A stretch of 63,299 nucleotides of DNA, the filler included. It is 5 parts of 5 records of this genome, joined end to end, with 100 filler letters (N's around TTAATTAATTAA, not from the genome) between each part and the next. Parts side by side here need not be neighbours in the genome. Positions count along the whole stretch, not along the records: positions 55,602 to 63,299 come from DRR378314_1159; 4 more parts are not named here. One strand, given 5' to 3'. A program made the translations under genes and the position numbers. Below are positions 12,630-63,299 of the stretch, piece by piece. The stretch's first letter is position 1, and every line of letters starts with the position of its first letter. The notes beneath the pieces are model-generated. The model was not told where the DNA came from, did not search any database, and was given only the letters and a program-made list of their open reading frames with translations.

Positions 12630-12630
12630 G

Positions 12631-28174: not shown

Positions 28175-28221
28175 GAGCACAATGTAGCGCGACCCCACAG
28201 ACCGCGCCACTCACAAAACGG

Positions 28222-30370: not shown

Positions 30371-30464
30371 GTCGTACCTGCATGATGGCCAATGCGTTGC
30401 TGTTGGATTTGTCGTTTGCTCTGATTCCGCCCTCGCGCGGCACCGTCTGTCCGCCGCGTTGCAG

Positions 30465-42324: not shown

Positions 42325-43903
42325 CTGCAAAATACGGAGGGCTCTACGGAGGCACAGAAAGTGCGCCAGGCGCTGCACAGCTCCCTCCTTGTTCAGCAGA
42401 GGTGCGCATGCTCGCCCAGCGCCCCTTTTCTCTCCTCCCTTTGTAAGGAGAAGACGTGCGCCATTGGACTATTGAAAAGATGGACATATTTCTTCTTGGC
42501 ACTGGATATGCGAAGACGGGTAGGAGATGCGCGCGTATTGGGCGAGGAGCCAGCGCGCGCACTCTGAGCGTAGTTTCGCACAACGCATCAACGGCTCTGA
42601 CGCTAGGCAGACCGAGGCCAGCTACTGCTGCTAGAACAAGCGCGTCGCCACAGGCAACGGCGCCCTGTGCGCAACAATACGTGAACAGCACCGCCTTCTG
42701 TTAGGCTAGGCAACACGCTTAATGCATAAAAAGCACACGGTAACAAAATCGCCGATAAATCCGAAGCGGAGCTCCGACCTCTGATCAGAGTTGACCTTGT
42801 AGCGCGCCGGGCAGCAAACCGCCACGCGAACACCGGCGAGCTGATCGCCCAGGACGCAAGGAGAGAGGCGTGCTGCCGTGGGCTGGACGTCGTATGCGCT
42901 AGAGACAGGCACCTTGCTCGCGCGCGTTCCGAGCAGATTCAATAATAGGTCTAACAATACATACACAGAGAAATCATTTTAGCCGCCGGCGCAACGGCAG
43001 AGAAGTCCTGTGCACCCGCGTGAGACGGTGGAGCAATGTGATACAATAGACCGAGGTGCAACCGCAGCGTAACGAGGGGGGAAATATCTTTCCAGCCCAA
43101 GCCAGTGCGCTGTGCAAACCCACAGCAGCGACTAAAGCAAGCAAACCTCACGAGATTACCCTGCACAGCAAACAGATACATGTTCACCTGATCCTATGCT
43201 AAGTGGAAATGGACTGAACGAGTGCAAAATACACGCATTTCACAGCGAGCAGTGCAAGAGGCGCGCGCGTGCGGAGTACGAACGCACCAACACGTGCAGG
43301 TTACCAGGTACTCCGCGGCACACCCTGGACGCTGAGCAGGCGCGCGCGCAGCCACTCCGCTTCGCGGGGCTGTCGTACGTGTCGATCAATCCGACAAGCA
43401 GCACGGGATCGTCTTGGCACTTGTGCAGGAGAAGCTTCAGGCTCCAGATTCGATGCCGGGATCTCGACGAGTGGAAGCACACCGCGTCCCTGCTTGCACT
43501 GCCCCGCACGAAGCCTCTCCGCCGTCCTCAATTTTACCCCTAGTACGCGTCACAGTGGTGTGAAGTATATCACACATCCTATAATATGCTTAAATAACTG
43601 TGAGTATTGAGTATTTATTCCAGGACCGAGAGGCCCTTGGCCCACGCTTGATAGACGGCTGTCGCAGAACGTTGCGCGAGGCAAGCGAGTGCTGTATTCC
43701 TGGTCCCAAGCGCCGGCTGCAGGTGCTACGCTGCCCGGTCCGGTTCTCTTCTGGGCTACGCACGGCTGTGTATGCGCAGCGAAGATTATTGACGCCCGAT
43801 CACCCCTAAATTATTGGTACCGCGAGTAGCAGAGACGTCGAGTAGGGTGGCGAGCAGCGCGGCCGTTTTCACACACTCTCTCTTTTTGTTTTTGTTCAAT
43901 GCG

Positions 43904-46831: not shown

Positions 46832-46931
46832 NNNNNNNNNNNNNNNNNNNNNNNNNNNNNNNNNNNNNNNNNNNNTTAATTAATTAANNNNNNNNNNNNN
46901 NNNNNNNNNNNNNNNNNNNNNNNNNNNNNNN
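46832..46931. other. Artificial contig-joining spacer
   Basis: N-run, TTAATTAATTAA, N-run. Confidence 0.99.
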
Positions 46932-47017
46932 CTTTGTCACAGCGACGCCGCTTGTGCGTACTCGCTATAAACTTGGGACATTGTTAACTTGCACCAGCAT
47001 ACCATCTACTGCGGCTG

Positions 47018-47823
47018 CAGTGGATCGGTTATGCAATTCAAATTCCAGCTCCGGACGCCTGAAAAAGGAACGACCTCAACCAATTGTTGTGCGTCGAGTC
47101 CGACCATCGAATAAGCTGCTTCCGAAAGAGCCGGAGGATGGCCCCTCGCGTCTTGACGAAGGTACGCAAATAAAGAAAAAGTAACGCATATGTAGCGTTG
47201 ATATTTTCTTCTGTACAGAGCAAGAATTTTCCAACCTGCGAGGGGAAACGGGTATGCGTACGACAAAACTCAGCGGGGAATCGATGAAGAACGTGGCGGA
47301 CAACGTTCCCAGCTCCTCGTCACGCGCACGGTTGTGTACCACATCCGCCGCATTTCTGTCCTCCTGCCCCTACACAACGCGCCACACGATACCGATTGGA
47401 AATACTCTTCTTCAATTTTCCTTGCTTTCATCTTCGTGTATTTTGCAGTGCTCGAGGAAATCAGGGAAAGACGATTATTTTTAGAGGAAATGCGAGCGCT
47501 AGGGGACGGTCCTCGCGTCGAGCGCATCGTGTTTCCACAGATCGACGAGGTACGCGCCCAATGCCAATTCTTTCCAAAGTGCCTTTCCTTGCAAAACATT
47601 TGATTCAAGCCTGAAAAACACATGAATTAATACGACGCTTCCAACATACATGAATTGCACTGTGTGAAGCGCCACACAAGTTGAGGATCTGTGCTTACAC
47701 GTTGCTACTTTGTCTGCGGCTCGCGCGGCGTACCCGGCGCTCCCCGTGTGCTCGTGTGGTGGCGTGGTGCGGCTCGAGCAGCTCATGAAGGAGCTTCGCA
47801 CATTGGAAGCGGCCTCTCCGTGA
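47018..47823 (+). CDS. UPF0193/EVG1 (C22orf23)-like protein, 3' exons (5'-partial)
   Basis: Exon 47449-47549 LEEIRERRLFLEEMRALGDG..VERIVFPQIDE spliced to LMKELRTLEAASP*; matches the EI.ER..FL.EM..LG motif. Confidence 0.6.
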
Positions 47824-48387
47824 GCAGTGACCAGCCACGTAAGATTTTCTTCTGATGGTCATGCAATCAGCCATGGAAGACGATTGTCCTGTACATTAAC
47901 TATCTGCGCGGCAGAAAGCACAACCGCATCGTCGGCCGGAGGGACATTCCGCCTCTGCAGTAGCGCCACTCGTCCGGATGGGCTTCGTTCATTGAGCAGG
48001 CATACCCAACGCTCGGGTAACCCTCCTTGCGCGTCACCCTGTCTCTGTACAATACATATGATACCCTACGATGTAGCGTGCAATGTAAGAGACAGACGGA
48101 ATGACTGCCCGCGTGCCACGGACGCGAAAACCAAAAGCACATCTCGTATGCGCTCGTTACTGCGCGGCGCCCTGGGGGTCGATTCTTGCCAAACTGGGAG
48201 ATGTTCTTAAACCTATATTGCAAGCCGAACTTTCGGGCGTGCTTCGGTGCCGCTTGCTCTCGCACACGCGCCGCGCTCCTCGGAGCACACGTCGCACCGG
48301 GAGAGCGCGCCGCCGGCCTCCCGATCTGCTCCTAGCCTATCGCTGTTCAATCGCTTGATTTAGGTGTTTGATATTTGTGTGCCTGTT

Positions 48388-49290
48388 ATGAGTGGAGCGT
48401 GGAGTGCCCTTCAAGCTGATGTGGTGGTTCGAGTGCAGTCGGTGTTTGCACCGGGCGAGACGTGGCAGATTATCACGCGCTGCGCCGATCCTGCCAACGC
48501 GTTTCTTGTGCTCATCCCGGCACTCGCAGGGATTTTCCCGGGAAACGCCGCAGCGCTTGTAACTCTATGCGTACTTATCTTTGCTGATTACAGCAATGCG
48601 GTATTTCTGAAATGGCCGCTTGGTCATTTTTTGGGAAACCGGCCATACTGGGTGGACTCGCGAGTTGCCGAGACTCGTTGGACTTGCGAAACGGGGTTCG
48701 GCTTTCCTTCCGGCCACGCCATGGTCAGCGCCGCCACATTCATTACCCTTGCGCGCTCGGTGCCACTGAGGGACCGAACAAGATCTTTACTTGTATTTTG
48801 TGCGTTTACGCTGTCGAGTGCCGCTGGCCTGTCTCGTGTGGTCATAGGAGCGCACAGTATCGATCAGGTGGTTGCTGGCCTGGCGATCGGTGTCGCCACG
48901 GCGCAGTTCCTTCCAGCCGTGATCCACAAGTTGCTTTCGCGCGCCCAGAAGCGTCCCATAATTCAGCTCCATTATGCGTATGCACTAGCAATCGCAAGTG
49001 GGCTAGGTGTCTACGGGCTCGCAGCGACGATGATGTGGGCATTACGCGGCGCAGGGCTCGACCCGCTGGCATCGGTAGCGCTAGCCCGCGCAGGCTGCGA
49101 CGGGCCGCTCCCGACCTACATCGCCTCGCCACTGGAGCACATCGCGCGCGACGCCGGAGCAACGGCTGGATTAGTCCTAGAGATACTTCGCCTTGCTTCG
49201 ACGCCGAGTGCCATTGGCCGACCTGGAGGGGCTGTTGCGGCATTCGCAGGGGTATTTGGTGCACAGGTACGACCTACGCTGCCACCGTAG
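48388..49290 (+). CDS. PAP2-superfamily phosphatase, glucose-6-phosphatase (G6PC)-like; probably spliced to further 3' exons
   Basis: KW......NRPYWV, CETGFGFPSGHAM, SRVVIGAHSIDQVVAG (the three PAP2 motifs); donor GT at 49267. Confidence 0.8.
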   Translation: MSGAWSALQADVVVRVQSVFAPGETWQIITRCADPANAFLVLIPALAGIFPGNAAALVTLCVLIFADYSNAVFLKWPLGHFLGNRPYWVDSRVAETRWTCETGFGFPSGHAMVSAATFITLARSVPLRDRTRSLLVFCAFTLSSAAGLSRVVIGAHSIDQVVAGLAIGVATAQFLPAVIHKLLSRAQKRPIIQLHYAYALAIASGLGVYGLAATMMWALRGAGLDPLASVALARAGCDGPLPTYIASPLEHIARDAGATAGLVLEILRLASTPSAIGRPGGAVAAFAGVFGAQVRPTLPP

Positions 49291-50443
49291 TAGCACGACG
49301 TCGAGCGAGCAAGGGGCGTGGCAGCTCGCTGCCATCTGGAATGCGCACGTTCTGCGAAAGTGGTCTTTCTTTGCAATTGCCCAACAATTCCTTGCTGGCG
49401 TGCTGGAGAGTTGTTCGGCGAAGCGCAGCGCGCAGGGCAGCGCGAGCGGTGCGCGCCAAGGCCTCTCCTCACACTTCGCGCCGTGCTGCACCGCTGCTGC
49501 CGTACCAGGTCCTTGCTGCGTGGAAGCCGGCGACGCAGAATATGACCGTACTTGTCCCGTATGCATTCGTACAATTTTTCGCTGTCACCACGGTATGCAG
49601 CCGCCTTAGCGCACCCACATCGCACTTGGAAAAGTCACTGAAATGTTACTGGGCGTCCAAAACAATGCGAGCTATTGGACGTTGCGCATCCGAGCGGTAC
49701 GTGCGGTTCTCGATTGACTGTTTCGCCCTGGTTGGTCTGCTGTTGTCGTTCTGATCTGCAGTGGATGTTTCGCGGCGCGCCGCGAGCTGCCCAAAGTATC
49801 ACAAGACTCTTCATTCATTCAAGAGCAGTACACAAGCAATGATCATGCATATGTTACACACGGGAAGCTACCCGTAGAGTTTTCGTCTGCAGCGCGGCCG
49901 CTGCTGACAACTCGTTCGCTGCCCGGGAGCGCTTCCACAGACGCCGTCGATCCCGCGACAGCTGGTACCTCGGCAGCTACGCTCGCTCTAGCTCTCCTTG
50001 TACAAACTCAATGTAAAATATATCCTTGTACAATGCGCCGCCGCGTACCGGCGGTGCGTGCGCGGGACGATAGAGCACCTCCCGCACATGATGGCACAAC
50101 AACAAAAAAAAAACATGGATGGCACGCTTGCATCATTGAGCGAATCACACAAGCAGACTGCGCCGGTAAGAACACCCGCGATGTCAGCGACACGGAGAAC
50201 AGCGGAGAATCCGCAAACGCAGTTTCGTACCCGTCGTTTCTGGGAACGCATGCGCCCCGCTTTCGCGTCGCGGCGGACACAGCAGCGCACTCCTCACACT
50301 CACCGCTAGTTTGCCCAGAAAACAAAACAAGTGCGCACAAGCCCACAGATCAACAGTTTCACTGTGGCATTGCAAACAGGAATGGTAGTCCCCTCCTGAA
50401 GTTCAGGAGAGTGCCGCAGCGCTCGCCCAGAGGTGCATCGCCA

Positions 50444-51850
50444 TCACGGGTCCTGGTCCATCGCGTCCGTGTCTGCTGTGCTGCCCTGTGTGGCGACGGC
50501 GCCTTCCTCATCCCGCGCGTCACCAGGGCCCACCTTCCCCTCCTTTCCGTCATCTGCATCTTCATCATCACTTGAACTGGAGTAGTCTGCTATATCGTCG
50601 TCGCGCAGCATGTGCTGAACCTCGTCAAACGCGCACAAGAGCAGCGAGAGCTGCTTCGACCGCTGCTGAGCAGCGGTTTCCAGCCGCGCCAGCCGCTCGT
50701 CGGCCCGCTGGCTCTCGCTCTTCGCTTTCGACAAAGCGCTGCATCGGTTCGAAAGGACGACAAACAGCACAAACGCCGCAGTTCTGCTGTGATAAGGTGG
50801 AAAGGGGTACCAATCTGCAGCAGATTTGAGGGGAACTTACGCGAAGCAATCCACAGTGCAACTCTGACGAACCGGGGCCATCAGGCCACTTCTAGAACAG
50901 CCGATTTGTTCTACTGGACTCCAAGCACCTGAGCAACTGAAATGCACGAGCGAAAATTAACATACGCTTGAATCTCTGTACGGGATGGGTGCTTATTGAC
51001 TTCACGGGCGAGAAGCTCGCATTCCTCTTTGTCAGCTTGCTCTCTGCGAGCTTCTTCGAGCTCTGCCTTCTTCACCGCAATGCCCCGCCGTGCTTCCTCG
51101 TTGTCATGAGCTGCACAGAGCAAAGTGAGAGACACAGCCATTCTCCCGTTGGTGTCACGCCAAAGAAGCTCTATGAAATACTGTAATAGCTACCGTTGCG
51201 AGAAGAACGGGCTATGAGTGCATTGAGGTAGCGTTTGTTGGGGCAAGGATTTTTCCTGAGAGAGAGAGAGAGAAGGCATTTTCTCCGCGGTGCTCGTGAC
51301 CAAACAGGCGCCGAAAGCGACACCGCGCGCGTAGAGAGGCAGCGCAAGTACGAGGGCGCGCGGCACTGCGCCGTCCAGGATAAACGCGCACTCGTAGCAT
51401 CGAATATTGTATAGATAGAAAGGCGCACCAGCTGTTTCGCGGAGCACTCCGAGCGCTTTCTCGTTTGCATCCTGGGCGGCAGCGACGCGCTCAGCTTTTA
51501 TGAGTACGGTTCGATACACCTCCACTTCGCGCGCGAAGACATCGAGAGCCTTTTCCCTGCACGTTCATCGCGGATCGCTAGCAGTTAGCAGAAGCAAGTG
51601 GCAAGACAGCAAGTCGAACGTGATACACAGAAAGCCCGATCTATTTGCAGAGATCATCAGAACGTCAAGGCACGCCTATGGAGGGTGGAGCTCTTAACGA
51701 GCGGAAAAGCTAGACGACACACCTTTCCGCGTCTGAGGCGGCTCTGCTGGAGTCGCGCGAGAATCGCGCAGTAGCCTTGACCAGGCGCTTGAACGGTCCC
51801 TCCTTTGCATCCAGCTTCAGCTCGATAATTTCATCGGTTTCTGATGAAGG
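50444..51850 (-). CDS. THOC7: THO complex subunit 7, multi-exon (start not located)
   Basis: DEII..KL....GPFKRLVK; KKAELEEARREQADKEECELLAREVNKHPSR; RSKQLSLLL; acidic tail. Confidence 0.75.
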
Positions 51851-52545
51851 AGCAATCGCATACAAGTTGTTTTTGGATAGAACAAGAAACAGCAGAACGG
51901 TTACGGGCTCTCGGAGGATGAGGCACAGCACGCGCGCTGCTTGTCGGCCGACGCCGCGGGGCGGCCGCGCAGCCCAAGCGGTCGCCGGCAGCTGCGACGG
52001 CACGAAACGCTGGGGTGCAAAGTGTCACCCCTCGCCCACAATGATGCTATCGCACACCCGCGACAACAAGATATTTTCATACATATAACTCTACTCAAAC
52101 CATGCAAGGAAGGTGGAATGCCTAGAAAAGCGGAACAATCCTTGCCTTCCATGTTTGGTCCCAGGGAACGCGCCGTCGGTCGCTCCTCCGCGAAACAACT
52201 CGCACCCCACTGCGGCGCGTGATCAAAAGCGCCAAAGGCGAGGGGCAAGGCGCGGTGGAGTAGGGCTGATATATGACATACATCGTTTTGACACAAAAAT
52301 AGTTGCCGCGCTACAGGTCTACATTATCCGATCGTACAGCAAACAGAGGCTTAGCTTGCTGTGTGCCCAGGATGGACGATGGTGGGAACGTGCGAGAACC
52401 CCAATGCGTAAACCACGTCGTGGAAGAGCAGCGCCACGGTTTCGGCCTCCGACGCGGCACCGCGCGTGTGCTGGCCAAGATACGCGGTCCCCCGCTCCTG
52501 TGCAACGAAACCACGGTGCTCGCGAGCGTGCTTTTGCGACCGAAG

Positions 52546-53143
52546 ATGCAGAGTACTGTAGCGATTGTACGGCGCGGGTGCTCGACTGTCCCGGGTGCCT
52601 ACCGGCGGCTCCTGCGCGCTGCACGTATTGTATTCACCGGCGACGCGAAAACGCGAGATGCCGCATTCGTGCAGGCTCGCGCTGAATTCGAGCAGCACCG
52701 CACGGTCGAAAATGCCGAGGAGATAAAAAAGGTACAGGAAAGCGAAATGATATTGCAGCGGTCCCGGAGGAGCAAAGTGCATTGTGACACTCATGTCCGA
52801 GTCTTTATTTTTTGTTTTGCGCGCAAGTGCTTGCAGGGTGGTATATGTTGTCCCTGTGGTGCTGATGCGCGGTCGTGCGGCAACGTCGGTTTGCGGCGTG
52901 TGTGTGCGCGTGTTTTCAGAGCCGCACGTGCCGCCTGCTAACGCTCTGCTCTGGGCGCTGGCTCGCTTTTTTGTGGGTTTTCAGCTTGTTGTAGCGGCTG
53001 ATGAAGCTGCAGCATTCCTATTGGAAAATGTGCGACAAGCAGAAGTGGATAAATCAAGCAACAAAGCCTCTATTGAAGTACAGGAGCGCCATGTGAAGGA
53101 CACGCAGTGGGCGGAGGGCGTGCCGCTCAACCTCAAGCAGTGA
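52546..53143 (+). CDS. LYRM7: LYR-motif complex III assembly factor (LYRM7/MZM1), 2 exons
   Basis: AYRRLLRAARIVFTGD...ARAEF; intron 52732-52984; ADEAAAFLLENVRQA. Confidence 0.8.
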
Positions 53144-53626
53144 GGCGCCGAGGCCTTTCCGGTTGGGTTGCCGGAGCGGTTGCACAGCGCGCCACGTGCT
53201 CATGCTGTACGCTGCACCGTTCGGAAACGTCTCGTAGGGAGTACAACAATAACTCGTTGTTTTTTCTCGCATCTGCGAGATTGCATGCCTCTCGTCATGT
53301 GCTATACGGTCTTCGGTCCACTCCACCTGTTGCCTGTGAGTGCGGCTCGGCTTCTTTCGGCTTGTTCTGCTGCGGCCGGCTGCAGTGCCAACATACCACG
53401 CGTATGTGCGTGCGCGATAGCCTCAACGAAATGAATGCGTCCATATGACACTCGTGAAAGGAATATGCGAGTGCAGCTGGGGGACGGGAGGAAGGGAGGC
53501 GCAAAAATTACCATTCACTGTACACAGCATAAGACGGCGAAACGCGCCTGCAGTCGAGACCCCCACACTGGCTAGCTCGCACTTCTGCTACTTACGCTCC
53601 GAGCGCTCAACAATTTTCGGCATGCA

Positions 53627-55501
53627 TCAAAACACGGTTGGGGGTGTAAACATGGACATTCTGCGTGTAGCAAGCAAGAAAGCCGGCTCACTGTCTTCGG
53701 CATCATCCGCGTACACGGCGGCCTCATTGTCGTCGTACGCATATGGAGCGAAGCGCGACGGATCCTCATTATCGCGAGTTGCACGGTCGAGCGGTACATC
53801 TGACCATACCCGCCCGTCTGCACGATCGGCACCTTCATGCGGAAGGTCGTCTGCCTCTAAAGTTACACTATGAACCACAATGTCGCTCGTTCCAAGCGCA
53901 AGGTCGTTCATGACAATCGACCCTCTGCTCAGCGGTGCTGAGCTGCCTTGCGCACGGCGCCTGTCGCGCGCGCGCTGGATTTGCGCGACCGCGTCCAGAC
54001 GCGCGAGCCACAGGAGGATCCAGCATTGCACTCCCCACGCTAAGAAAAATATCACACCTGCCCTCCGGGAAATTAGTTCCATCACCAGCCCTGACGCTAA
54101 TGGAGACAAGAAGTGCCCTAGAAGCATTCCGGAGAATAGCTGAGCAGCTGAAGCAAGCGGCCGCGCAGCCGGGGGCACCGAGCCGAGCATGAGGCCAACA
54201 GCACCGGGGACAACAGCACCTCCGAGGAACAGCTCAAACCACAGTGGAATCATGTACCACCAGAGATTTGACACGAAAGCTGCGGGAAATCCAATGACCC
54301 ACGCTCCGAGCGCCAGAAATGTCAGAATCTACGGGGAGATAACCGTGCAAGAACGGAAAAAAGGCCATGCAAGCGATTGAAGACATGAAGGCAGAACACC
54401 TAGCCGGCTATACGGAACAATGTCTTGCACCGACAGCGTTGAACGGGCACATGCACCAGTCCACGTAGAGCCACAGAACTAAGTACCCATAAAATGCAAG
54501 AATATGCAAATCTCATCACTGTAAAGTGCTTATTTCTTTCATCGATCAAAGTCAGCGCGAATCCATTGGTTGGTGAAAATGCAAGGGGGGTGATCTTCTC
54601 AAGGCTGCGCCATTCACTTCCTGCCTCTGGCACGGAAGAGATATGGCACACTTGCCACTACATACACAGGAAATCACATTGTCGCAGCATAGGATCCATA
54701 CGTTGCCTCGTTCTGTTTTTTACATGATGTTTTAGAAAAAGGATCTTTAGAGATTTCGTCCTGCTGTGCCCAGGTTCGCGATAAACAAGGAAAAAGCTGG
54801 AAAATGACGACCGGAACAGCCTGATGGCGACCACGACGCACCTTGAGCGTACGCTTCCTGCCGTTTGGCCCCGCGTATCCACCTCGCTTATCAATGAACC
54901 ATCCACCAAACAACTGTATGATTATTCCAAGACGTATCACAAAACATCGTTTACATGAGACTGTTGCAGATGCACAGAATTTCAAAATGTGACACTATAG
55001 AACGCGAAGACAAACACATATGTGCAACGTGCAACCGGGGAGCATTGAATTCTCTCTGTCTTCAGGACCCAGAAACGCTCCTGTGAGTCAGCCACATCGT
55101 CTTAGAAAGCGAACAATCGCTATAAATCGTTGACCTAATGTACCGTAGTCAGTGGCGGGGGGAGGGAACCAACGATCTTTCTCTGCTGCAGAGTAGGGAG
55201 CTCAGACGCACCACGCCTAGCGTCGGACCCGTCGCAGTGACAATCGCGAAAAATGTGAGAACTTCCGATTTCTCGGCCTTGATCTCAGTCTGCAAGAAAT
55301 CTGTGCTCCAGTATTGAATTGAAGCTACAACGAAGTACAAGCTAGCAATCGCCAAAACCGTGAAGACAAAAATGCGGTTCTTTGCGAGCATTTTCATTCC
55401 TATAGGCTGCTTCGTTCCTCTTCCATCTCCAGCAGGCGACGCAGCAGCTGAACCCTTGCCCAGAGTTGCTTCCGGGAACGCGACAGCAGAAAGGTCAAAC
55501 A
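53627..55501 (-). CDS. MFS transporter, Spinster-like, multi-exon (5'-partial)
   Basis: NRIFVFTVLAIASLYFVVASIQYW, IVTATGPTLGV, FGGWFIDKRGGY, LWFELFLGGAVVP, LLGHFLSP. Confidence 0.8.
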
Positions 55502-55601
55502 NNNNNNNNNNNNNNNNNNNNNNNNNNNNNNNNNNNNNNNNNNNNTTAATTAATTAANNNNNNNNNNNNNNNNNNNNNNNNNNNNNNNNNNNNNNNNNNN
55601 N
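55502..55601. other. Artificial contig-joining spacer
   Basis: N-run, TTAATTAATTAA, N-run. Confidence 0.99.
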
Positions 55602-57675
55602 TATCACACCCTGAAATCTGGAGACCGCTAGGCCAGAGCCGAGCCCCGCGCCTGCTGCCGCGAAATCGCCAGCGGGCAAGGGCTTGCGCGCAGATAGAGA
55701 ACAGTTGTTTCTGACATCGAGCAAGCGCTAATTAGCAAGGCCTATTCCCAGCGCTACGGCACTGTGTTTCTCAGGGATTTTTCCCGAGCTTTGCTGCCTG
55801 TCTTTGCGTGCGGTACGTCCTCTACTCCTACCTTGACGAAGACCAGGAATGTGCTATTTTCGTCGCCATGAACAAACACGTGTACACGTAGATCGATGCT
55901 AGAGCTACAAACACGCAGACAGTACTCGGCGTTGTCTGGTATTTATTTTGAAAAGCGCTGTCGCGCTTCTACCGCTCTCGCGTCGTGATCGGGGAGAGTG
56001 GGGCACACACGGCTGGGACGCGTACCCACTCGGACGAACGCCAACCGCCTGCCTCTTTGCAGCGCCCACCCGCTGCCACGCAGACGCTCTTGCGCATCAA
56101 CCTCCCCTACCAACGCACCAAAGATTGTGGTTCACCACCGTAAAAGCTTTTTGCCACGTGTTGTGCTCACTCCACCGAGTTTTCTCCCAGCGAATAGTCG
56201 TTGCGACTCCCGGCAGGTGGGTTGGTGGCACGCCAATACACGAGCTGCAGCTTGCTAACGGTGTCGGCCCACCAATCGCACAACACTGTGCTCTGGGCAA
56301 GCCGCGGCGTAGCAGAAACGCGCTGTACTCTCCTCCCAAAGTTTTCCCCGATGTACACCAACTTGTTTTACCAGTGTCTCCTGTGTACGCGTGCGTTTAG
56401 CACCCGGTGCGCACAGATGAGAGCACTGTGTGCGCCGGCGAGTTGCTCCCAGTTTCCGGCGCGTTTCTCCTGGTTTCCGCGTAGCCTACCCATGGGACTG
56501 CGTTCTCTCGCTCGCACGCCGAGCTGTCGTGCCCCAACTATACAACCTCGTCCAGTGCGCATACTCAGAGCACAAACCTGCAAACGAAGGAGAAATTGCA
56601 GATACATAGATATCAGAAGTCTCGATACGATGTGCTATCTGGATGAATTCGTTGGGTAGGACTACCGTGCGCCTCTACTACCGCAAAACAGCACCTCGAC
56701 GGCAGGTGCAGGAGCAACGGTACAGCGTTTGCCGACCAGCAGCAACGCGCTGCAGCTTAGATGACCGCGCCTCCTATTCTGATGTTCAATCTTCATTATT
56801 CACGTATTTCACGGATCTAGCGGCTTGATGAATAGCATCATCAGACGCTACAGGCCCGGGCAGGGCAAAGCTGCATGCTCTGCCTTTCGTTCGTTCAGTG
56901 CGGCCTTGCTTAGGAAGTTTTCCACCAAAGTCTGTGTCCTACATAGCTGCACGCACGGGCACAGTCCTCCCTGCGCGCACAGAGTTGCGTTGCTGGCCGA
57001 GAGCGCGCCGTGGCCCCGTGCCAAGATACTGCCACTTCATGCGCCAGTACAGTGTGTCATAGCGCTTGCGTGCCGGATGTGCGGCAGAAGAATGTTTGGT
57101 CGCGGCGCCGTGCACAAAAGAACCGCTGCCGTACGCACGGGCACAGTCATCCCTGAGCGCACAGAGCTGCGTCGCTAGAGCCTTCGAACCAAACTCCAGG
57201 AGGGAGCTGCCGCATCATTTGCCAGCAGTCGAGGGTAGCAGCTCATTCTTTTGTCTATGTACCGACTTTGCAGCCTGCTGAAGAATGCGCATACCGACCG
57301 CAGCTTAGCGTCGGACATGGCTATGCCGCGCAGCTCGCCGGCCCTTGCGCGGCGCAGCCTTTTCTTTCTTCACCGCGCGTGGGCCCCCGCGCAGTGGCCG
57401 TAATGCTCTCATTTCGATGCATCCCTTCATTCCATGGATATATTTTCGCATTCCTACAGGAAAAGCGCGCGCGCTGCCTTTGAATGAACCGGACAGGAAC
57501 CGGGGAAGCCAACGTAGCTCGCCCTAAGTGCCTCGGCAAAGGAGTACAACCTTCGGCCGAATCGCCCCCGCTTACGCATACATCCGAGCGCAAGCCACTT
57601 TGCTGGTACATACAAACCCGCAGGGATTGTCATTGAGTACCCACTTTGCGCACATCGTATTACCTCTTCCCAGTC

Positions 57676-60600
57676 ATGGATACGCAGAATGAAAGGCATG
57701 CGTGTCCCAACCGCCGATTTTTCGACGCAGTATTGCGAAGGGACGATGCCAGCCTGCGAACAGACGACGAAGCGAAGCGCTTTCTCGCCGCCATGCTCGA
57801 GTTCCTCGACGAAGAAAAGAAGCAGCTTCTCCGACGCCTTACCAGCCCTGCCGAGAACGGAATGAAGCGTCTTGACGATACTGTCAACATGTTAGCTGAT
57901 GTGGAAGAATCTGAGCATGGACTGTGCGCATTTCTTGACCATCTGTGCGATGCGAGGCTTGAGGTCGGCCTCATGAGTCGACAGCTGGACAAGGTGCTTG
58001 CCCGCGTCCTCGAAGCTGCTGGGTTGGGCGAGCACCTGCTCGAGCTACTCCAGGAGAACCGCATTCCCGACCAAGGTCCCTTCGCATGGATGCTTCTACG
58101 TCTTTCGCGCCGAACGCATGACTTATTCGATAAGAACACCGTTTACAAAGATCTCGCCAAGCTACTTGCGCGTGGTGCAAACCGTTGGGCCTCCGCACTT
58201 ACCGCGCAGCTTGCTACTGCGGGGCTGATCGATTTGGCGCAGCGCGCCGGAGCTCAAACGCGACGGCAAGAGCATGACAATGATCATGCCGATTTCCGTC
58301 GCATTCAAATTATGCCCACCATGGAAGAAAGCATGCACGTGAACCCGTTGTTGCCCCCGTTCTCTGCTGTCCGCGCCTACAGCGGAGAGGGAGAGCACGG
58401 TACTGGCGGCCAGGCAGGGGCCAAGGCACAGTCTCTGCTCCGCGAAGAGCGATACCTGGACTGGCTCTTCCGTATGTACCGCGAAGACCTCGTAGGATCC
58501 ATTCGCGACACCCTGCGCGACTCGGACAAGTCGCATGTCCTGCAGTTTACATCAGTCCGCATTCTGGGCGTTGGCGTTGACGGGTCGCCTGCAGGGCCTA
58601 CGGTTCTCCGCGTGCGATTTTCGTTTCCTGACGACCATGCTCTCGCGCGCAGCAAGAGCGACAAAGAGCGCGCCAAGTATCTGCGGGCGCACTCGAAGCG
58701 TCTCCTTGCAAACAATACTCTGGTGTGCATCCGATTTCCTCGGCTCGCACACTTTTTTGGCAAAGTGCATCGAGTCGATTGGACTTCAGTGGAGCAGGAT
58801 CCTCGCAAAGGCATTGTGCTGCTGACAATGCCACCGGATCGCCTGACGCATGCTCTCACCGTGGCGTACAGCGCTACCGAGCGCGGTGTCATGCTGAACG
58901 CGCACGACGGGTATTTCGCGTACGAGCCTGTGCTGCACACGCTTCAAAACATGGTGGCCGTTCCCTTTGCCGACGAGCTTGTTCATGCGTGTGAGCCGCG
59001 CGAGCACGATGATGATGCCCGCGCCTGGCGCGCGCGCGAAGCTGAGCTCAGCGACCTCTTGGGGGACCTGGACGCTCAGCAGCAACAAGCGGTCGCGCGC
59101 GCAATGACGCAGCGCATCTCGCTGATCCAGGGGCCCCCCGGGACGGGCAAATCGTTTGTCGGAGCGCGTATTGCAACGCTGTTGCGTCGGCTGTTCCCCA
59201 AGGAGACGATTCATATCCTCTGTTATACCAACCACGCTCTCGACCAGTTCCTCGAGGAGTTGGTTGAGAGGGACATCAAGGACTTCGTACGACTCGGCTC
59301 TGGATCCAAGAGTGAAATTGCGCAGGGAAGTCGTCTGCCAAAGGCGGGTGGCAGCCTGCCTCACCATCTCCACAGGTACCGCGTCGAGCTCGAGCGAATG
59401 CGCGCGCGCTCGCAGGAGAATGTAATGGCGCTCGCTGAAGAGCTTCGCACGGCGATGGGCAACGACATTCCATTCGACGTTGCTGAGCCTTTCCTCTCTG
59501 CCGACGAGCGTGCAGCGTTCGACGCGCCGTTTCCACGGCAGCGCCAGCGAACACCCGCTCCCTCCGACAAGGCGCTGTGGTCGGACTGGTGTGCTGGGCG
59601 CCACTGGAAAGGCGCTGCGGAGCTGTCCGGTGCCGCTGCAGCAGTGTGGAAACTTTCGTTACGCGAGAGACGCGCTCGTCTGGAGCAGCTTCGAAAGGAG
59701 GAGCTCGTAGGGCCGATTTGCGAGGAGCTTGATCACGAACTCGCAAGCGTAGACGACCTTGCCGCCCAGCTCCGCGATCTCGAGAGCTTGCGCCAAGTGG
59801 AAACGTTGCAGCGCGTGCCGCTCATTGCAAGCACTGCCACGGGCGCGGCGATGCACCAATCTCTTTTCGCGCAGGCGCCACCGGCATTCGTCATCATTGA
59901 GGAAGCCGGTGAGCTCCTTGAGGCGCATATTGTGGCTGCGCTGAGCCGCACCAGCCGCAAGCTCATCATGATCGGCGACCATAAGCAACTCCGCCCCAAG
60001 TTGGATCAGTACCGGTTGCGCGTCGAGAGCGGAGCCGGTCACAACTTTGACATATCGCTGTTTGAGCGCCTAATCACGGCAAAGTATCCATACACAACGC
60101 TGTCGGTACAGTTTCGCATGCATCCGGATCTGTCGCGAGTGGTGCGCGAGATGACGTACCCGAATCTCGTCGACAGCGAGTATGTGCGCACGCGCGCCGC
60201 TGTCCCCATCCCGATGGCAACGCGCCTGGCGTTTGTGCACCACGACCACCTCGAAGCCAAGGCCGAGCGCGCCAATCTCTCCAAAGTCAATGAAGCGGAA
60301 GCCGATATTGTAATTCGCATTGTCCGGCATCTCGTGCTGCATGCCGATGGCGTGAACAGCAGCGTAGCCATTCTGACCCCTTATCTCGGCCAACTGCTGG
60401 TCCTGCGCGAGAAGCTGCAGAAACTCGACAGCGCGCTGACGGTAAGCGTCGGGCAGCGCGACATTGCGGATCTCGCGCGCAAGGGCCACGAACTGGCCTC
60501 TCGGCGCCGGGCGGAGACACACCTGCGGAGCAAAACAATACTACTTGCCACGATTGACAATTTCCAGGGCGAGGAAGCGGATGTCGTAGTCGCGTCGATG

Positions 60601-62217
60601 GTCCGGAGCAATGCACGGGGTGACATTGGATTCTTGAAAGAGCCAGAACGCGTCAACGTCCTCTTCTCGCGTGCACGATACGCTATGGTGTGCGTAGCCA
60701 ACGTGGACACCTTTTGCGAGAGCTCCAAGCGGCACCCTCAGAGCCCCTGGGCAAAGTTGCTCGCGGCAGTGAAGGATCGTGTCTTCCGTGGTCTACCTGT
60801 CCGATGTCAGGTGCATGGCAAGGTGGGCTTGGTGGCTTCGGAAGACGATTTTTCAGCCCTGTACGCACGGAACGGCTGTGCTCACGAGTGCTCTGTCGAT
60901 GATCCGGCGATGAAGGACCTTGTCGACAATGTCGCGCAAGGGCTGCAGCTCCACGATAGAGATGCAGAGATCGAGCACCGCGAGCGCACGTCATCAGATG
61001 AGCCGCATGTAGGCGCCCATGGCGCGGGGAACAGTGGAAAGCAGCGCGTCCGGGCGCGTGTGCCGACGGGCGATGCAGAGTGTGCGATCTCGCCACGAGG
61101 AAGCGAACATCTTCCAAAAGTAGAGACTGCCGCGGATTGTGCTGGCGTGTCATTCGAGAGTGATAAAGGCAGTTTCATAGATGGACGTTGCGTCGACAGT
61201 GTCGTAAAGTGGAACCGTACTGCCGAAGTCGAGACGGGTCTACACGCGGAGCAGCGTGATCGCAGGAGCGTGTCGCAAAGTGATGCGGCAAACGGCCTCC
61301 AGGCGGCACGCTCAGCCCAGCGCGCGGCAGCACAAGTGCCAGACGATACAAAACTTCGGTGGTCAGACATTGCGGACCAAATCAACGATGAAACCGAGAT
61401 TTGCGAAGGAGCGACAGCAAAAGTGTACCGCATTACGTACCGCGGCGAGAAGCTCGCGGTAAAACTGTCGCATCTAAGGCGCAATAACAAGAGAGACATC
61501 GACAATTTCTATCGAGAGGTGAAGACGATGCTGAAAGTCCCAGCGGATCCAAATGTTCTCCCGCTTCGCTTCGTAGTCGCCGACCGCAGCCACCTTGCTC
61601 TCTTGCTTCCTCTGGGAGAGCCGCTCGACGACGTTGCAGACGACGTCAGAGACGACCACAGTGCTCTTCTCCGTCTGCTTCTGGGTACTGCAAAGGGCTT
61701 GCTACATCTGCATAGCCATGACTGTATTCATCGTGATGTGAAAGCTTCAAACGTAATTGTGGTTGTCGACAAAGACGGCCGCTACGTTCCGAAAATTGCC
61801 GACTTTGGCGCAGCGAAGCTGATGCAGTCGCTTTCCCTCACCACGACAAGCACTGCCCGAACAGCTGCGTGCACGGTACTGTACGCTTCCCCGGAGCAAC
61901 TTCAGAAACCCGGCTCACGCACCTTCAATATTACATCCAAAAGTGACATGTGGGCATTTGGCAATCTGGTGAACGAAGTGTGGGACGGTGCACGCCCATA
62001 TGAAGATATGGGCCTGGTGGATGGCGCATATCTTCGCGAGCAGATTGCGACCGGTGCGCTTCGCCCCGCGCCCTCGGACGCCTTGCCACCCCAGCTACGC
62101 GATATGGTGGCTAAATGCTTTGAGCTAGATCCATCAGACCGACCTAGCGCCCGCGATGCCGTCCGAGTGCTGAGCGATGTCCTTGTTGGCTCTCCCGAGG
62201 ACATCATGGATGCTTAG
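57676..62217 (+). CDS. ZNFX1-like SF1 (Upf1-like) RNA helicase fused to a C-terminal protein kinase; uninterrupted ORF
   Basis: ZNFX1 signatures HDNDHADFRRIQIMPT, FRMYRED, LIQGPPGTGKSFVG, CYTNHALDQFLE, EEAGELLEAH, IGDHKQLRP, TIDNFQGEE, NVLFSRAR. Kinase motifs EGATAKV, LAVK, FYREV, HRDVKASN, DFG, YASPE, SDMWAFG. Confidence 0.92.
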   Translation: MDTQNERHACPNRRFFDAVLRRDDASLRTDDEAKRFLAAMLEFLDEEKKQLLRRLTSPAENGMKRLDDTVNMLADVEESEHGLCAFLDHLCDARLEVGLMSRQLDKVLARVLEAAGLGEHLLELLQENRIPDQGPFAWMLLRLSRRTHDLFDKNTVYKDLAKLLARGANRWASALTAQLATAGLIDLAQRAGAQTRRQEHDNDHADFRRIQIMPTMEESMHVNPLLPPFSAVRAYSGEGEHGTGGQAGAKAQSLLREERYLDWLFRMYREDLVGSIRDTLRDSDKSHVLQFTSVRILGVGVDGSPAGPTVLRVRFSFPDDHALARSKSDKERAKYLRAHSKRLLANNTLVCIRFPRLAHFFGKVHRVDWTSVEQDPRKGIVLLTMPPDRLTHALTVAYSATERGVMLNAHDGYFAYEPVLHTLQNMVAVPFADELVHACEPREHDDDARAWRAREAELSDLLGDLDAQQQQAVARAMTQRISLIQGPPGTGKSFVGARIATLLRRLFPKETIHILCYTNHALDQFLEELVERDIKDFVRLGSGSKSEIAQGSRLPKAGGSLPHHLHRYRVELERMRARSQENVMALAEELRTAMGNDIPFDVAEPFLSADERAAFDAPFPRQRQRTPAPSDKALWSDWCAGRHWKGAAELSGAAAAVWKLSLRERRARLEQLRKEELVGPICEELDHELASVDDLAAQLRDLESLRQVETLQRVPLIASTATGAAMHQSLFAQAPPAFVIIEEAGELLEAHIVAALSRTSRKLIMIGDHKQLRPKLDQYRLRVESGAGHNFDISLFERLITAKYPYTTLSVQFRMHPDLSRVVREMTYPNLVDSEYVRTRAAVPIPMATRLAFVHHDHLEAKAERANLSKVNEAEADIVIRIVRHLVLHADGVNSSVAILTPYLGQLLVLREKLQKLDSALTVSVGQRDIADLARKGHELASRRRAETHLRSKTILLATIDNFQGEEADVVVASMVRSNARGDIGFLKEPERVNVLFSRARYAMVCVANVDTFCESSKRHPQSPWAKLLAAVKDRVFRGLPVRCQVHGKVGLVASEDDFSALYARNGCAHECSVDDPAMKDLVDNVAQGLQLHDRDAEIEHRERTSSDEPHVGAHGAGNSGKQRVRARVPTGDAECAISPRGSEHLPKVETAADCAGVSFESDKGSFIDGRCVDSVVKWNRTAEVETGLHAEQRDRRSVSQSDAANGLQAARSAQRAAAQVPDDTKLRWSDIADQINDETEICEGATAKVYRITYRGEKLAVKLSHLRRNNKRDIDNFYREVKTMLKVPADPNVLPLRFVVADRSHLALLLPLGEPLDDVADDVRDDHSALLRLLLGTAKGLLHLHSHDCIHRDVKASNVIVVVDKDGRYVPKIADFGAAKLMQSLSLTTTSTARTAACTVLYASPEQLQKPGSRTFNITSKSDMWAFGNLVNEVWDGARPYEDMGLVDGAYLREQIATGALRPAPSDALPPQLRDMVAKCFELDPSDRPSARDAVRVLSDVLVGSPEDIMDA

Positions 62218-63299
62218 CGAGAACTGCTCACTCGCCTAGAATCCCGACGTTCCCCGCTAAGATTGCGTTGGAGGCGGTGCATCTGTCGTATTTGATGAGA
62301 TGCAATCTACCACTAGTTATCCAAGATCGTTAGTTTCCACTAAATGTGTACAAGGTGAAATAATAAAGGCTTGAGAACTGGAGCTTGACGTGGCGCGCAC
62401 TGTTGTCGTAGCGTGAGCTCGTTGCGGACGCCTGGTGCGAAAGAGCATGTGGACGTGCCGGCGGCGGAGAGCCACGCACCGCGTACACCTCCTCTCGATC
62501 GTGTCCCTTCCACGCAAAGATCGCCGCAAATCTGCACGCGCACAATTTCTGCTCTGTAAGTGGGCCGGGCTACTCTAGCCAAAGAATTCGTGGTACACGA
62601 CGACAAGCCAGCGAATCGGCTCAGATGTGGCTGAATTGCAATGTCATCCCAATCTTCTACCCCACACTGTGTGCTTGCTTTGGCACCACCAGTCGCTTTG
62701 GCTCCCCCCTCTTTTGTAGTTAAAGTGGCGCTGTGCTGTCAGACGTATACAAATGCGCCTTAACATGTACGTTTTGGCTCTTCGAGTACATGACGGAGTG
62801 GGATGGACTTGCGCAGGACTGGTGCTGCGACGAGTACTGTCACTGAAGTGCAAGCGCGTCAAACGGCGGAGCCAGATGGCCAAATTTGAGCTGCTGCTGG
62901 TTCGTCTCTCACAGTACAGTATTGCGGAAACACAATAGCATATTATATCAGCTGTACGTGCAGTTTGTGTAGCGGAGATCCGGTGCCGATCGATGAGGAA
63001 GAATCACTGCAATACGCCCAAACCAAGCCACATCCGAAACGGCTAGTGAATGCTGGGACGCCTACATTCACATCGCTTCGTTGACTACGGCATGTCCTCG
63101 CACAGTTTCGTAGAGCATACGTTGCATCCACATCGAGCTCATGCGACGCGAATATATAGCGCGGAAAGACAAGAAACAAAGTTCTGGGTCGCACAGCTCG
63201 ATCAGTGGTGTGGGATGGGTCTGCACAATGGAGAACTGCGAGTCAGGCGTCGAGTCGCACTGCCGCGTTCTATCCGTTGGCTCGAGCCAAAGGCGTGAG

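What the first reader, a model, noticed from the sequence alone, without database searches (positions are those of the whole stretch)
57676..62217. ZNFX1-type RNA helicase fused to an intact protein kinase: candidate protist RNA-sensing immune receptor
Seen: one ORF holds a complete ZNFX1-family SF1 helicase, only a remnant of the Cys-rich region (CQVH...GCAHEC), a ~200-aa linker and a kinase with VAxK-like Lys, alphaC Glu, HRD, DFG and SPE. The Gly loop is atypical (CEGATAKV). Known: animal ZNFX1 is a dsRNA sensor and RNAi-inheritance factor whose C-terminus has NF-X1 zinc fingers and an E3 ligase region, not a kinase; PKR couples dsRNA sensing to a kinase using different domains. Inference: an effector swap producing a PKR-analogous RNA-activated kinase. 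I do not know of this architecture being described.
Basis: partly seen in the sequence, partly recalled or inferred. Interest (0 to 1): 0.8.

Follow-up and report, generated by a model that had tools for sequence, protein, structure and literature searches.

The report
ZNFX1-like RNA helicase fused to kinase
One long open reading frame on a small eukaryote-like contig joins a ZNFX1-type RNA helicase to an apparently active protein kinase, a pairing already known in reversed order from a bacterial anti-phage protein but not found here in any other eukaryote-type relative.

Summary
ORF 57676-62217 (+, 1513 aa) carries a complete UPF1/ZNFX1-type SF1 helicase (Pfam AAA_11 and AAA_12). Its best solved relative, by sequence and by fold, is human ZNFX1. 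After the helicase come one surviving zinc knuckle, a roughly 160-aa mostly disordered linker and a protein kinase domain with every catalytic residue present. Only the first Gly-loop glycine is changed, to Cys.

Three qualifications apply.
- The window is five contigs joined by N spacers. The gene sits alone on a 7.7-kb contig, and two of the other contigs look bacterial.
- The architecture is not unprecedented. Type I Mokosh MkoA, a bacterial anti-phage protein, is a Ser/Thr kinase plus UPF1-like helicase, with the kinase first. The tree places the target's helicase in the eukaryote-type clade, so its fusion arose independently.
- No orthologue, read or transcript supports the junction. A GC3 shift and a stretch of about 60 codons without coding signal lie inside the linker.

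None of 255 eukaryote-type helicase relatives carries this kinase. Their C-terminal modules vary: AAA ATPase, RZ finger, PARP, CCCH.

Best reading: a real effector-swapped ZNFX1-like RNA sensor that signals by phosphorylation. The immune role is inferred, not shown. New variant of a known kind; interest 0.5.

The parts
57676..62217 (+). Whole ORF, 1513 codons plus stop. The helicase-kinase fusion.
57676..58230 (+). Residues 1-185: all-helical repeat region (ARM-like) at the N-terminus of the chassis.
   Evidence: The AlphaFold2 model has helices H4-181 with pLDDT mostly near 90. This region is homologous to the N-termini of family members, e.g. P0242 at E 6.7e-46 over res 10-444.
58261..58995 (+). 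Residues 196-440: family-conserved motif block (HDND..DFR..I.PT..E; FR..RED), a long helix and a beta-barrel (1B-like).
   Evidence: Invariant or nearly invariant columns E218, R266, R269, H200, N202 and D203. Strands 290-410 in the model.
59068..59997 (+). Residues 465-774: RecA1 (Pfam AAA_11) with a long helical insertion (about 563-713). Walker A GPPGTGKS is at 59131-59154; motif II EE is at res 742-743.
60049..60705 (+). Residues 792-1010: RecA2 (Pfam AAA_12), including motif VI R999.
60793..60900 (+). Residues 1040-1075: the single surviving C-x2-H...C-x3-C zinc knuckle of the NFX1-type finger arm.
   Evidence: It aligns with the first finger of ZNFX1. It occupies nearly invariant family columns. 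pLDDT is 72-95 up to about res 1070.
60901..61380 (+). Residues 1076-1235: linker. One helix (1077-1105), then a stretch predicted to be disordered (1107-1211). It contains the GC3 change point (codon ~1132) and about 60 codons without coding signal (res ~1111-1170).
61387..62166 (+). Residues 1238-1497: protein kinase domain. HRD is at 61729-61737 and DFG at 61801-61809.
55502..55601 (.). Artificial N44-TTAATTAATTAA-N44 spacer. It marks the left end of the 7698-bp contig that holds the gene.

Best explanation
This is a real single gene of an unidentified eukaryote.

Shown:
- The ZNFX1-like helicase chassis is complete: an ARM-like helical N-terminus, a beta-barrel, and two RecA domains with a helical insertion, with all ATPase and helicase motifs intact.
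- Only the first zinc knuckle of the family's C-terminal arm remains.
- A largely disordered linker of about 160 aa and a catalytically competent eukaryotic-type (TK/TKL-like) Ser/Thr-signature kinase take the place of the E3 module.
- The helicase belongs to the eukaryote-type clade, not to bacterial MkoA.

Inferred:
- The helicase is the sensor. RNA binding and ATP-driven remodelling relieve autoinhibition and/or bring several molecules together on one RNA, as reported for human ZNFX1.
- The tethered kinases then phosphorylate each other and downstream targets.
- The likely setting is conflict with viruses or transposons. The family's alternative tails (E3, PARP, AAA) and the bacterial analogue MkoA are modifier or effector modules of defence-type proteins.
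For: - Architecture and motifs.
- Fold of res 1-1100: mean pLDDT 87.4 and pTM 0.88. The best PDB fold match is the ZNFX1 helicase core 9q9z (E 2.2e-36, TM 0.75 on the target length), ahead of Aquarius, SETX and UPF1.
- Kinase model: pLDDT near 90, with a generic active-type ePK fold (CTR1, ASK1, CaMKII, FGFR2, IRAK4 on top).
- Start and end fit the family. Relatives' N-termini align from res ~10, and the kinase ends 16 residues before the stop.
- The linker reads as coding in the ORF's frame. A codon model trained on the rest of the ORF favours that frame by 42 bits over the best other model, and the two other forward frames hold 5 and 6 stops.
- No repeat at the junction that would suggest misassembly.
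- Tree of 51 helicase cores (quick IQ-TREE, SH-aLRT only): all 31 eukaryote-type rows, including the query, form one clade (100). The three MkoA rows lie outside it. The query groups with metagenomic P0242, P0243 and P0244 (98).
- Modular tails on the same chassis. By my hand count of the listing, 91 of 120 listed relatives carry AAA PF00004, 9 of 120 carry RZ PF20173, 1 carries PARP and 1 carries CCCH. One search adds further PARP and RZ forms.
- Literature. RNA-dependent remodelling and oligomers of ZNFX1: PMC13710534 (passages read). E3 activity regulated by RNA binding: 10.1101/2025.09.05.674436 (passages read). MkoA is a kinase plus UPF1-like helicase that defends against phage: 10.1101/2022.05.11.491447 (passages read).
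Against: - No independent support for the junction. The exact protein is absent from the 15-billion-protein collection.
- No orthologue of the kinase part was found. The metagenome scan gave 14 loci at 21-38% identity, and the viral scan gave none.
- None of 255 fetched helicase relatives has the kinase.
- GC3 drops from 0.67 to 0.56 at codon ~1132, inside the linker (LR 15.4; the 95% point of 300 permutations is 9.6 and their maximum is 22.5).
- Residues ~1111-1170 show no coding signal. Over about 60 codons an open frame is not very improbable by chance.
- The contig is only 7.7 kb and comes from a set that also holds bacterial-looking contigs.
- Nothing here tests RNA binding, activation, substrates or any immune role.
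- ZNFX1 relatives also act in RNAi (Hrr1, ZNFX-1; PMC9276528, passages read).
- The Gly loop lacks its first glycine (Cys1243).
Confidence: 0.45

Rival explanations
1. The fusion is real, but the protein is a housekeeping or small-RNA factor rather than an immune receptor. It would work like Hrr1 or ZNFX-1 (RdRP-coupled RNAi) or like UPF1 with its kinase SMG1. The attached kinase would phosphorylate the helicase itself or silencing and decay partners to time an RNA-surveillance cycle.
For: [quoted passage not shown] ZNFX-1 sustains small-RNA amplification (PMC9276528, passages read). The helicase core is UPF1-like. That SMG1 phosphorylates UPF1 is recalled knowledge and comes from no call.
Against: No RNAi or NMD partner is on the contig; 0 of 10 flanking ORFs gave a Pfam hit. 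The family's variable tails and the bacterial analogue point towards conflict systems. Silencing of transposons and defence overlap, so this rival is only partly distinct from the best explanation.
Confidence: 0.25
2. The fusion is an artefact. It could be an assembly chimera of two molecules, or two adjacent genes (helicase, then kinase) read as one because of a consensus error or an unrecognised intron or stop in the linker.
For: It is a singleton architecture with no orthologue. A GC3 change point lies inside the linker, and about 60 codons there lack coding signal. The contig is short and comes from a mixed set of contigs.
Against: The frame stays open for 1513 codons, while both other forward frames of the linker carry 5 and 6 stops. 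Coding signal in the ORF's frame extends to about res 1110 after the helicase and resumes at about res 1160, some 75 residues before the kinase domain. No repeat or low-complexity DNA lies at the junction. No GTAAG, GTGAG, GTACG or GTATG donor-like motif occurs in 60901-61400. The GC3 after the shift (0.56) equals that of ORFs on the other eukaryote-like contigs (0.575-0.59), so both halves fit one genome.
Confidence: 0.2
3. The fusion is real but the kinase is a pseudokinase or scaffold. The altered Gly loop would prevent catalysis, and the domain would serve as an oligomerisation or docking module, as in MLKL.
For: The first Gly-loop glycine is Cys1243. MLKL pseudokinase chains are among the best sequence matches in the PDB.
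Against: All residues that pseudokinases usually lose are present: K1263, E1281, HRD D1354, N1359 and DFG D1376. The central Gly1245 is kept.
Confidence: 0.07
4. The gene is a horizontally acquired, domain-permuted bacterial type I Mokosh mkoA.
For: Both halves hit the PADLOC MkoA profile PDLC03920: the helicase at 329 bits on profile positions 596-1097, and the kinase at 90 bits on positions 18-277. The nearest ESM Atlas clusters are bacterial kinase plus AAA_11 proteins.
Against: The helicase core sits inside the eukaryote-type clade (SH-aLRT 100), apart from the MkoA rows. The N-terminal 450 aa are shared with fungal and algal relatives. The kinase matches eukaryotic TK/TKL kinases better (5e-19) than it matches the three MkoA kinases (3e-9 to 4e-6). 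The domain order is reversed. No MkoB/PLD gene lies in the flanks.
Confidence: 0.03

Closest known systems
Human ZNFX1 and its orthologues (C. elegans ZNFX-1, S. pombe Hrr1)
   Same: The SF1 UPF1-like core is closest to ZNFX1 by sequence (E 2.2e-59) and by fold (9q9z, E 2.2e-36). The motif II EE dipeptide and Walker A are present. Homology continues past the core into the first NFX1-type zinc knuckle. The N-terminus is helical, like an ARM domain.
   Different: The zinc-finger arm is cut after its first unit: Ala1078 replaces the next conserved Cys. There is no RZ finger or E3 module (no PF20173 hit). A kinase stands in that place. Identity is only about 23-30%. The tree does not show orthology with animal ZNFX1.
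Type I Mokosh MkoA (bacterial anti-phage system; partner MkoB is a PLD nuclease)
   Same: A Ser/Thr kinase domain and a UPF1-like helicase sit in one polypeptide. Both halves of the target match the MkoA profile. Four MkoA-type proteins were recovered: L030, L087, L046 and P0398.
   Different: [quoted passage not shown] MkoA lacks the 450-aa eukaryote-type N-terminal domain. All 3 MkoA genes whose loci I held have mkoB directly downstream; the target's flanks have no Pfam hit. The helicase clades are separate. The kinase similarity is generic: 90 bits, against 119 for Pfam Pkinase and 158 for mad6.
Fungal and algal 'helicase + AAA ATPase' proteins of 2200-2600 aa (e.g. Aspergillus, Armillaria, Gonium pectorale GPECTOR_10g1014)
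   Same: They share the N-terminal domain plus helicase chassis at 28-42% identity. They also share the zinc-knuckle region after the core.
   Different: Their C-terminal module is a CbxX-type AAA ATPase (PF00004), not a kinase. None of them matches the target's kinase.
PKR (EIF2AK2)
   Same: Only the logic is shared: an RNA-binding sensor tethered to a kinase by a flexible linker, which allows RNA-templated trans-autophosphorylation.
   Different: The target has no dsRBD. Its kinase is nearest to TK/TKL-type kinases rather than to eIF2-alpha kinases among the listed PDB hits. Its sensor is an ATP-driven helicase.

Membership tests
ZNFX1 family (NFX1-type zinc finger-containing protein 1) | UPF1-like SF1 helicase core with intact ATPase and RNA-helicase motifs, closest to ZNFX1 among solved helicases | tested here: met
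ZNFX1 family (NFX1-type zinc finger-containing protein 1) | N-terminal ARM repeat domain | tested here: inconclusive
   The model shows a helical repeat region at res 1-181. The N-terminus is homologous in 174 of the fetched proteins. The sequence match to the ZNFX1 N-terminal part is not significant (domain score -1.1). The solved core 9q9z does not allow an ARM comparison.
ZNFX1 family (NFX1-type zinc finger-containing protein 1) | Long arm of about twelve NFX1-type zinc fingers after the helicase | tested here: not met
   Only one C-x2-H...C-x3-C unit is present (res 1044-1072). The next conserved Cys column is Ala1078. The family description is from PMC13710534 (passages read).
ZNFX1 family (NFX1-type zinc finger-containing protein 1) | C-terminal E3 module (Z-RING, and an RZ finger with a catalytic Cys) | tested here: not met
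   No PF20173 or other E3 hit was found, and the C-terminus is a kinase. The E3 description is from 10.1101/2025.09.05.674436 (passages read).
Type I Mokosh MkoA | Ser/Thr kinase domain and COG1112/UPF1-like helicase in one protein | tested here: met
   the definition is
Type I Mokosh MkoA | Collinear, end-to-end match to the MkoA profile (kinase N-terminal, helicase C-terminal) | tested here: not met
   In the target the helicase (res 441-1032) matches profile positions 596-1097, and the kinase (res ~1290-1500) matches profile positions 18-277, so the order is swapped. True MkoA proteins match positions 5-1108 in one stretch.
Type I Mokosh MkoA | Adjacent MkoB (PLD nuclease) gene | tested here: not met
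   0 of 10 flanking ORFs has any Pfam hit. Only about 2 kb upstream and 1 kb downstream exist on the contig. 3 of 3 bacterial loci have mkoB downstream.
Type I Mokosh MkoA | Helicase groups with prokaryotic MkoA in a tree | tested here: not met
   The query lies in the eukaryote-type clade (SH-aLRT 100) and the MkoA rows lie outside it. The tree is a quick search with several long branches among the prokaryotic rows.
Active eukaryotic protein kinase (ePK) | VAIK Lys, alphaC Glu, HRD Asp, catalytic-loop Asn, DFG Asp, APE Glu and subdomain XI Arg | tested here: met
   K1263, E1281, D1354, N1359, D1376, E1407 and R1489 fall in invariant columns of a 41-kinase alignment.
Active eukaryotic protein kinase (ePK) | Canonical GxGxxG loop | tested here: not met
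   The loop reads C1243-E-G1245-A-T-A. Only the central Gly is kept.
PKR / eIF2-alpha kinases | dsRNA-binding domains N-terminal to an eIF2-alpha-kinase-type domain | tested here: not met
   There is no dsRBD in Pfam. The best kinase matches are TK/TKL, STE and CaMK types. Substrate specificity cannot be tested with these tools.

The most novel reading that the evidence does not exclude
The ZNFX1-type helicase chassis is a plug-and-play eukaryotic RNA sensor whose output module is exchanged between lineages (E3 ligase, AAA ATPase, PARP, kinase). This gene would be its first kinase-output form: a eukaryotic, independently evolved counterpart of the bacterial Mokosh MkoA helicase-kinase, turning detection of foreign RNA directly into phosphorylation signalling.
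Probability: 0.25. Interest if true: 0.75.

Novelty: new variant of a known kind. Interest (0 to 1): 0.5.

Why it matters
If the fusion is real and RNA-activated, it would show three things.
- The ZNFX1 chassis can drive outputs other than ubiquitin ligation.
- Eukaryotes and bacteria joined a UPF1-like helicase to a Ser/Thr kinase independently, in opposite domain orders.
- A single-polypeptide model would be available for asking how an SF1 helicase passes RNA recognition on to an effector. That question is open for human ZNFX1 and for Mokosh; I found no mechanism for the MkoA kinase in the passages I read.

If the fusion is an assembly artefact, it matters not at all. That is why a spanning read or a cDNA is the first thing needed.

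Tried and rejected
- Public sequencing runs for the ORF: none was listed and no RNA holder was listed.
- Own genome: none is held.
- Rfam on the whole window: 0 matches.
- Viral contig scan with the whole protein: 5 pattern matches, none a relative.
- Metagenome scan with the kinase part: 14 loci at 21-38% identity over part of the query, so no orthologue.
- Exact-sequence look-up: not in the collection.
- P0374 looked like a helicase-kinase candidate, because its best stretch was in the kinase. It is four tandem kinase domains with no helicase.
- Word-based searches for the same architecture. Whole protein: 120 of 360 hits listed, none with PF00069. Kinase region: 120 of 338 listed, none with PF13086/7. 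Region 940-1513: 27 hits, and only P0398 has both domains; it is a bacterial-type MkoA.
- These searches list only the best hits and cover lengths of 832-2648 aa. The exhaustive search shows only its top 150 of 2122 hits below 1e-30. Fusions with a more distant helicase cannot be excluded.
- Flanking ORFs on the contig: 0 of 10 have a Pfam hit at E <= 0.1.
- RSCU comparison of the two halves: r = 0.72, but a bacterial ORF gave 0.76, so the measure does not discriminate.
- Taxonomic placement: not achieved. The nearest named helicase relative is Gonium pectorale at 42% identity.
- Paper searches for 'ZNFX1' + 'protein kinase domain' + 'fusion' gave 0 papers. 'ZNFX1' + evolution + helicase + 'domain architecture' gave 8 papers, none describing a kinase form in its listing.
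- Supplementary files of the papers were not seen. The tables of eukaryotic MkoA hits in 10.1101/2022.12.12.520048 could contain such proteins.

Full report
**What the window is.** The 63,299-base window is not one molecule. Four spacers of the form N44-TTAATTAATTAA-N44 split it into five contigs: 1-11713, 11814-30270, 30371-46831, 46932-55501 and 55602-63299. The first two contigs carry unbroken bacterial-type genes (LepA, AbgT, a PQQ dehydrogenase with a cytochrome c domain, a Rieske oxygenase, an ABC ATPase). Their tetranucleotide usage correlates at 0.92 with each other and at only 0.57-0.68 with the other three contigs. The last three contigs correlate at 0.91-0.95 with each other. One of them encodes a RUN plus Rubicon-homology protein.

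**The observation.** The ORF runs from the ATG at 57676 to the stop at 62217, giving 1513 aa.

Pfam matches:

| Family | Residues | E-value |
|---|---|---|
| AAA_11 | 465-774 | 1.6e-24 |
| AAA_12 | 792-1010 | 7.9e-41 |
| Pkinase | 1238-1496 | 3.3e-34 |
| PK_Tyr_Ser-Thr | — | 2.6e-30 |

- Among solved structures the best sequence match is human ZNFX1 (9q9z_A, E 2.2e-59). UPF1 chains score near 1e-28.
- The ZNFX1 alignment continues past the helicase. Query 1040-1073 (CQVH...GCAHEC) pairs with the first zinc-finger unit of ZNFX1.
- In a 60-sequence family alignment, C1044, H1047, C1068 and C1072 occupy nearly invariant columns. The next conserved Cys column is Ala1078 in the target. The 'remnant' is therefore exactly one finger unit.
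- Walker A K492, the motif II pair E742-E743 and R999 are in place.
- In a 41-kinase alignment, K1263, E1281, H1352-R-D1354, K1356, N1359, D1376, G1378, P1406-E1407, D1424 and R1489 fall in invariant columns. The first Gly-loop glycine is Cys1243 and the central Gly1245 is kept.
- The HRDVKASN loop has the Ser/Thr signature. The best PDB sequence matches are TK/TKL-type (a Src-Abl ancestor, MLKL, MLK/MAP3K9, OSR1).

**Structure.**
- An AlphaFold2 model of residues 1-1100, built on the family alignment, is confident: mean pLDDT 87.4 and pTM 0.88.
- It shows a helical repeat region (1-181), a long helix, a beta-barrel (about 290-410), and two RecA domains with a long helical insertion (about 563-713). 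The zinc knuckle is folded up to about residue 1070.
- Foldseek against the PDB puts the ZNFX1 helicase core first (9q9z, E 2.2e-36, TM 0.75 on the target length, 925 columns). Aquarius, SETX, UPF1, IGHMBP2 and Sen1 follow.
- A second model, of residues 1040-1513, has mean pLDDT 70.7. The kinase is predicted at about 90. There is one helix at 1077-1105, and residues 1107-1211 fall below 50, which suggests a disordered tether.
- The kinase fold matches CTR1, ASK1, CaMKII, FGFR2 and IRAK4 about equally well, so no subfamily can be assigned.

**Is the junction real?**

For:
- The frame is open for 1513 codons.
- A codon model trained on the ORF without the linker favours the ORF's frame in the linker by 42 bits.
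- The other two forward frames of the linker carry 5 and 6 stops.
- There is no repeat at the junction, and none of the four donor-like pentamers I searched for occurs in 60901-61400.
- The N-terminus aligns with relatives from about residue 10.

Against:
- GC3 changes from 0.67 to 0.56 at about codon 1132 (LR 15.4). The 95% point of 300 permutations is 9.6 and their maximum is 22.5.
- Residues ~1111-1170 carry no coding signal in any frame model.
- An open frame over some 60 codons in the right phase could arise by chance in several per cent of random joins. This figure is my estimate, not a computed result.
- The lower GC3 equals that of ORFs on the other eukaryote-like contigs (0.575-0.59), so both halves fit one genome.
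- No sequencing run was listed for the ORF, so the decisive test could not be run.

I put the chance that the fusion is an artefact at about 0.2.

**Relatives.**
- The exact protein is not in the 15-billion-protein collection.
- A word-based search with the whole protein gave 360 hits, of which 120 were listed, at 28-41% identity. All are helicases, and none carries PF00069. By my hand count of that listing, 91 of 120 also carry an AAA ATPase (PF00004), 9 of 120 an RZ finger (PF20173), one a PARP domain and one CCCH fingers.
- An exhaustive HMMER search with residues 440-1513 against 1.84 billion representatives found 2122 proteins below 1e-30. Of the 150 listed, all match the helicase part except P0374, which is four tandem kinase domains without a helicase.
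- Local phmmer found the target's kinase in none of the 255 fetched helicase relatives. The N-terminal 450 residues are homologous in 174 proteins, the best being P0242 at E 6.7e-46.
- The closest relatives are metagenomic: P0242 (1575 aa), P0243 (1414 aa) and P0244 (1587 aa), at 40-42% identity over the core. Their C-terminal tails have no Pfam family.
- Named neighbours include two adjacent Gonium pectorale genes and a Rhodelphis marinus protein.
- The kinase part has no orthologue. The search of proteins of 832-2648 aa gave 30% identity at best. The metagenome scan gave 14 loci at 21-38%. The viral scan gave none.

- The ESM Atlas placed the protein nearest to bacterial clusters of 1050-1140 aa carrying PF00069 together with PF13086 (score 0.96). 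This was a lead only.
- PADLOC then gave MkoA (PDLC03920) at E 1.9e-98, with residues 441-1032 on profile positions 596-1097 of 1112.
- The kinase alone hits positions 18-277 of the same profile at 90 bits.
- A scan of prokaryote genomes with the family alignment kept 80 of 232 confirmed loci. In 3 of the 80 (Nostoc L030, Pseudactinotalea L087 and a Clostridia MAG, L046) one ORF holds an N-terminal Pkinase and a C-terminal AAA_11/AAA_12.
- Those three ORFs match MkoA end to end at 580-793 bits. All three have an MkoB gene directly downstream.
- A fourth such protein, P0398, came from the last word-based search.
- A second preprint lists human ZNFX1 among MkoA hits (10.1101/2022.12.12.520048, passages read).

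**Same idea, separate origin.**
- A tree of 51 helicase cores was built by quick IQ-TREE search with SH-aLRT support only. It has several long prokaryotic branches, and the program itself flags those joins as unsure.
- All 31 eukaryote-type rows, including the query, fall in one clade (100) on a long branch. The three MkoA rows are among the prokaryotic rows outside it.
- The query forms a four-row clade (98) with P0242, P0243 and P0244.
- The target's kinase is closer to eukaryotic TK/TKL kinases (5e-19) than to the three MkoA kinases (3e-9 to 4e-6).
- The domain order is reversed, and the flanks hold no PLD gene: 0 of 10 ORFs has any Pfam hit.
- The fusion is therefore best read as independent, not as an acquired mkoA.

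**How it most likely works.**

Shown: an intact helicase chassis of the ZNFX1 type, a disordered tether and a kinase with a full catalytic set.

From the literature:
- Human ZNFX1 is autoinhibited by a blocking helix. It is remodelled by ssRNA into active monomers and dimers and forms higher-order assemblies (PMC13710534, passages read).
- RNA binding regulates its E3 output (10.1101/2025.09.05.674436, passages read).

Inferred:
- RNA engagement by the helicase releases or clusters the tethered kinase.
- The kinase then autophosphorylates in trans and marks downstream targets.
- The setting is defence against viruses or transposons. This fits the exchangeable modifier tails on the same chassis and the bacterial analogue.

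An RNAi or RNA-surveillance role is a serious rival, because Hrr1 and ZNFX-1 work with RdRPs (PMC9276528, passages read). The comparison with PKR is one of logic only: the target has no dsRBD and no eIF2-alpha-kinase affinity.

**Verdict.**
- The architecture is a new variant of a known kind: the ZNFX1-like chassis with a swapped output, convergent with MkoA.
- It rests on a single short contig, without read, transcript or orthologue support.
- The lineage ('protist') is unresolved.
- Interest is 0.5.

Noticed in passing
window 11714-11813, 30271-30370, 46832-46931, 55502-55601: The window is a concatenation of five contigs joined by N44-TTAATTAATTAA-N44 spacers. Features in different segments are not physically linked.
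   Followed up: yes
window 1-30270: The first two contigs look bacterial: IMS/DinB-like polymerase, ABC ATPase, class-III aminotransferase, AMP-binding enzyme, FAD monooxygenase, Rieske oxygenase, AbgT transporter, LepA, and a PQQ dehydrogenase with a cytochrome c domain. Their tetranucleotide usage differs from that of contigs 3-5. The source is therefore a mixed assembly or bin.
   Followed up: partly
window 43793-46390 (+): An 865-aa ORF with RUN (E 4.2e-06) and Rubicon-homology (E 7.9e-25) domains, on a contig with the same composition as the target's contig.
   Followed up: no
window 56946-56994 and 57128-57176: A 49-nt direct repeat (88% identical, 182 nt apart) lies in the ORF-free 2 kb upstream of the gene. 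Its function is unknown.
   Followed up: no
window 61006-61185 (res ~1111-1170): The GC3 change point (codon ~1132, 0.67 to 0.56) coincides with a stretch of about 60 codons without coding signal inside the linker. It could be the evolutionary fusion seam or an assembly seam.
   Followed up: partly
P0002 and P0245 (Gonium pectorale GPECTOR_10g1014 and 10g1015): Two adjacent paralogues of the helicase chassis sit on one green-alga contig. One has an AAA ATPase tail and the other does not.
   Followed up: no
L030:467-9181: In Nostoc, an HmaA gene (1716 bits) lies directly upstream of the type I Mokosh mkoA-mkoB pair, which looks like a defence island.
   Followed up: no
window 61231-62214 (kinase domain): The kinase scores higher against the PADLOC mad6 model of the MADS system (158 bits) than against Pfam Pkinase (119 bits) or the kinase part of MkoA (90 bits). 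NCBIfam MAD6 gives only 76 bits against a cut-off of 460. This is unexplained.
   Followed up: partly
P0374: A 2398-aa metagenomic protein with four tandem protein kinase domains, each preceded by a transmembrane-like stretch. It is probably a tandem receptor-kinase array or a merged gene model.
   Followed up: no
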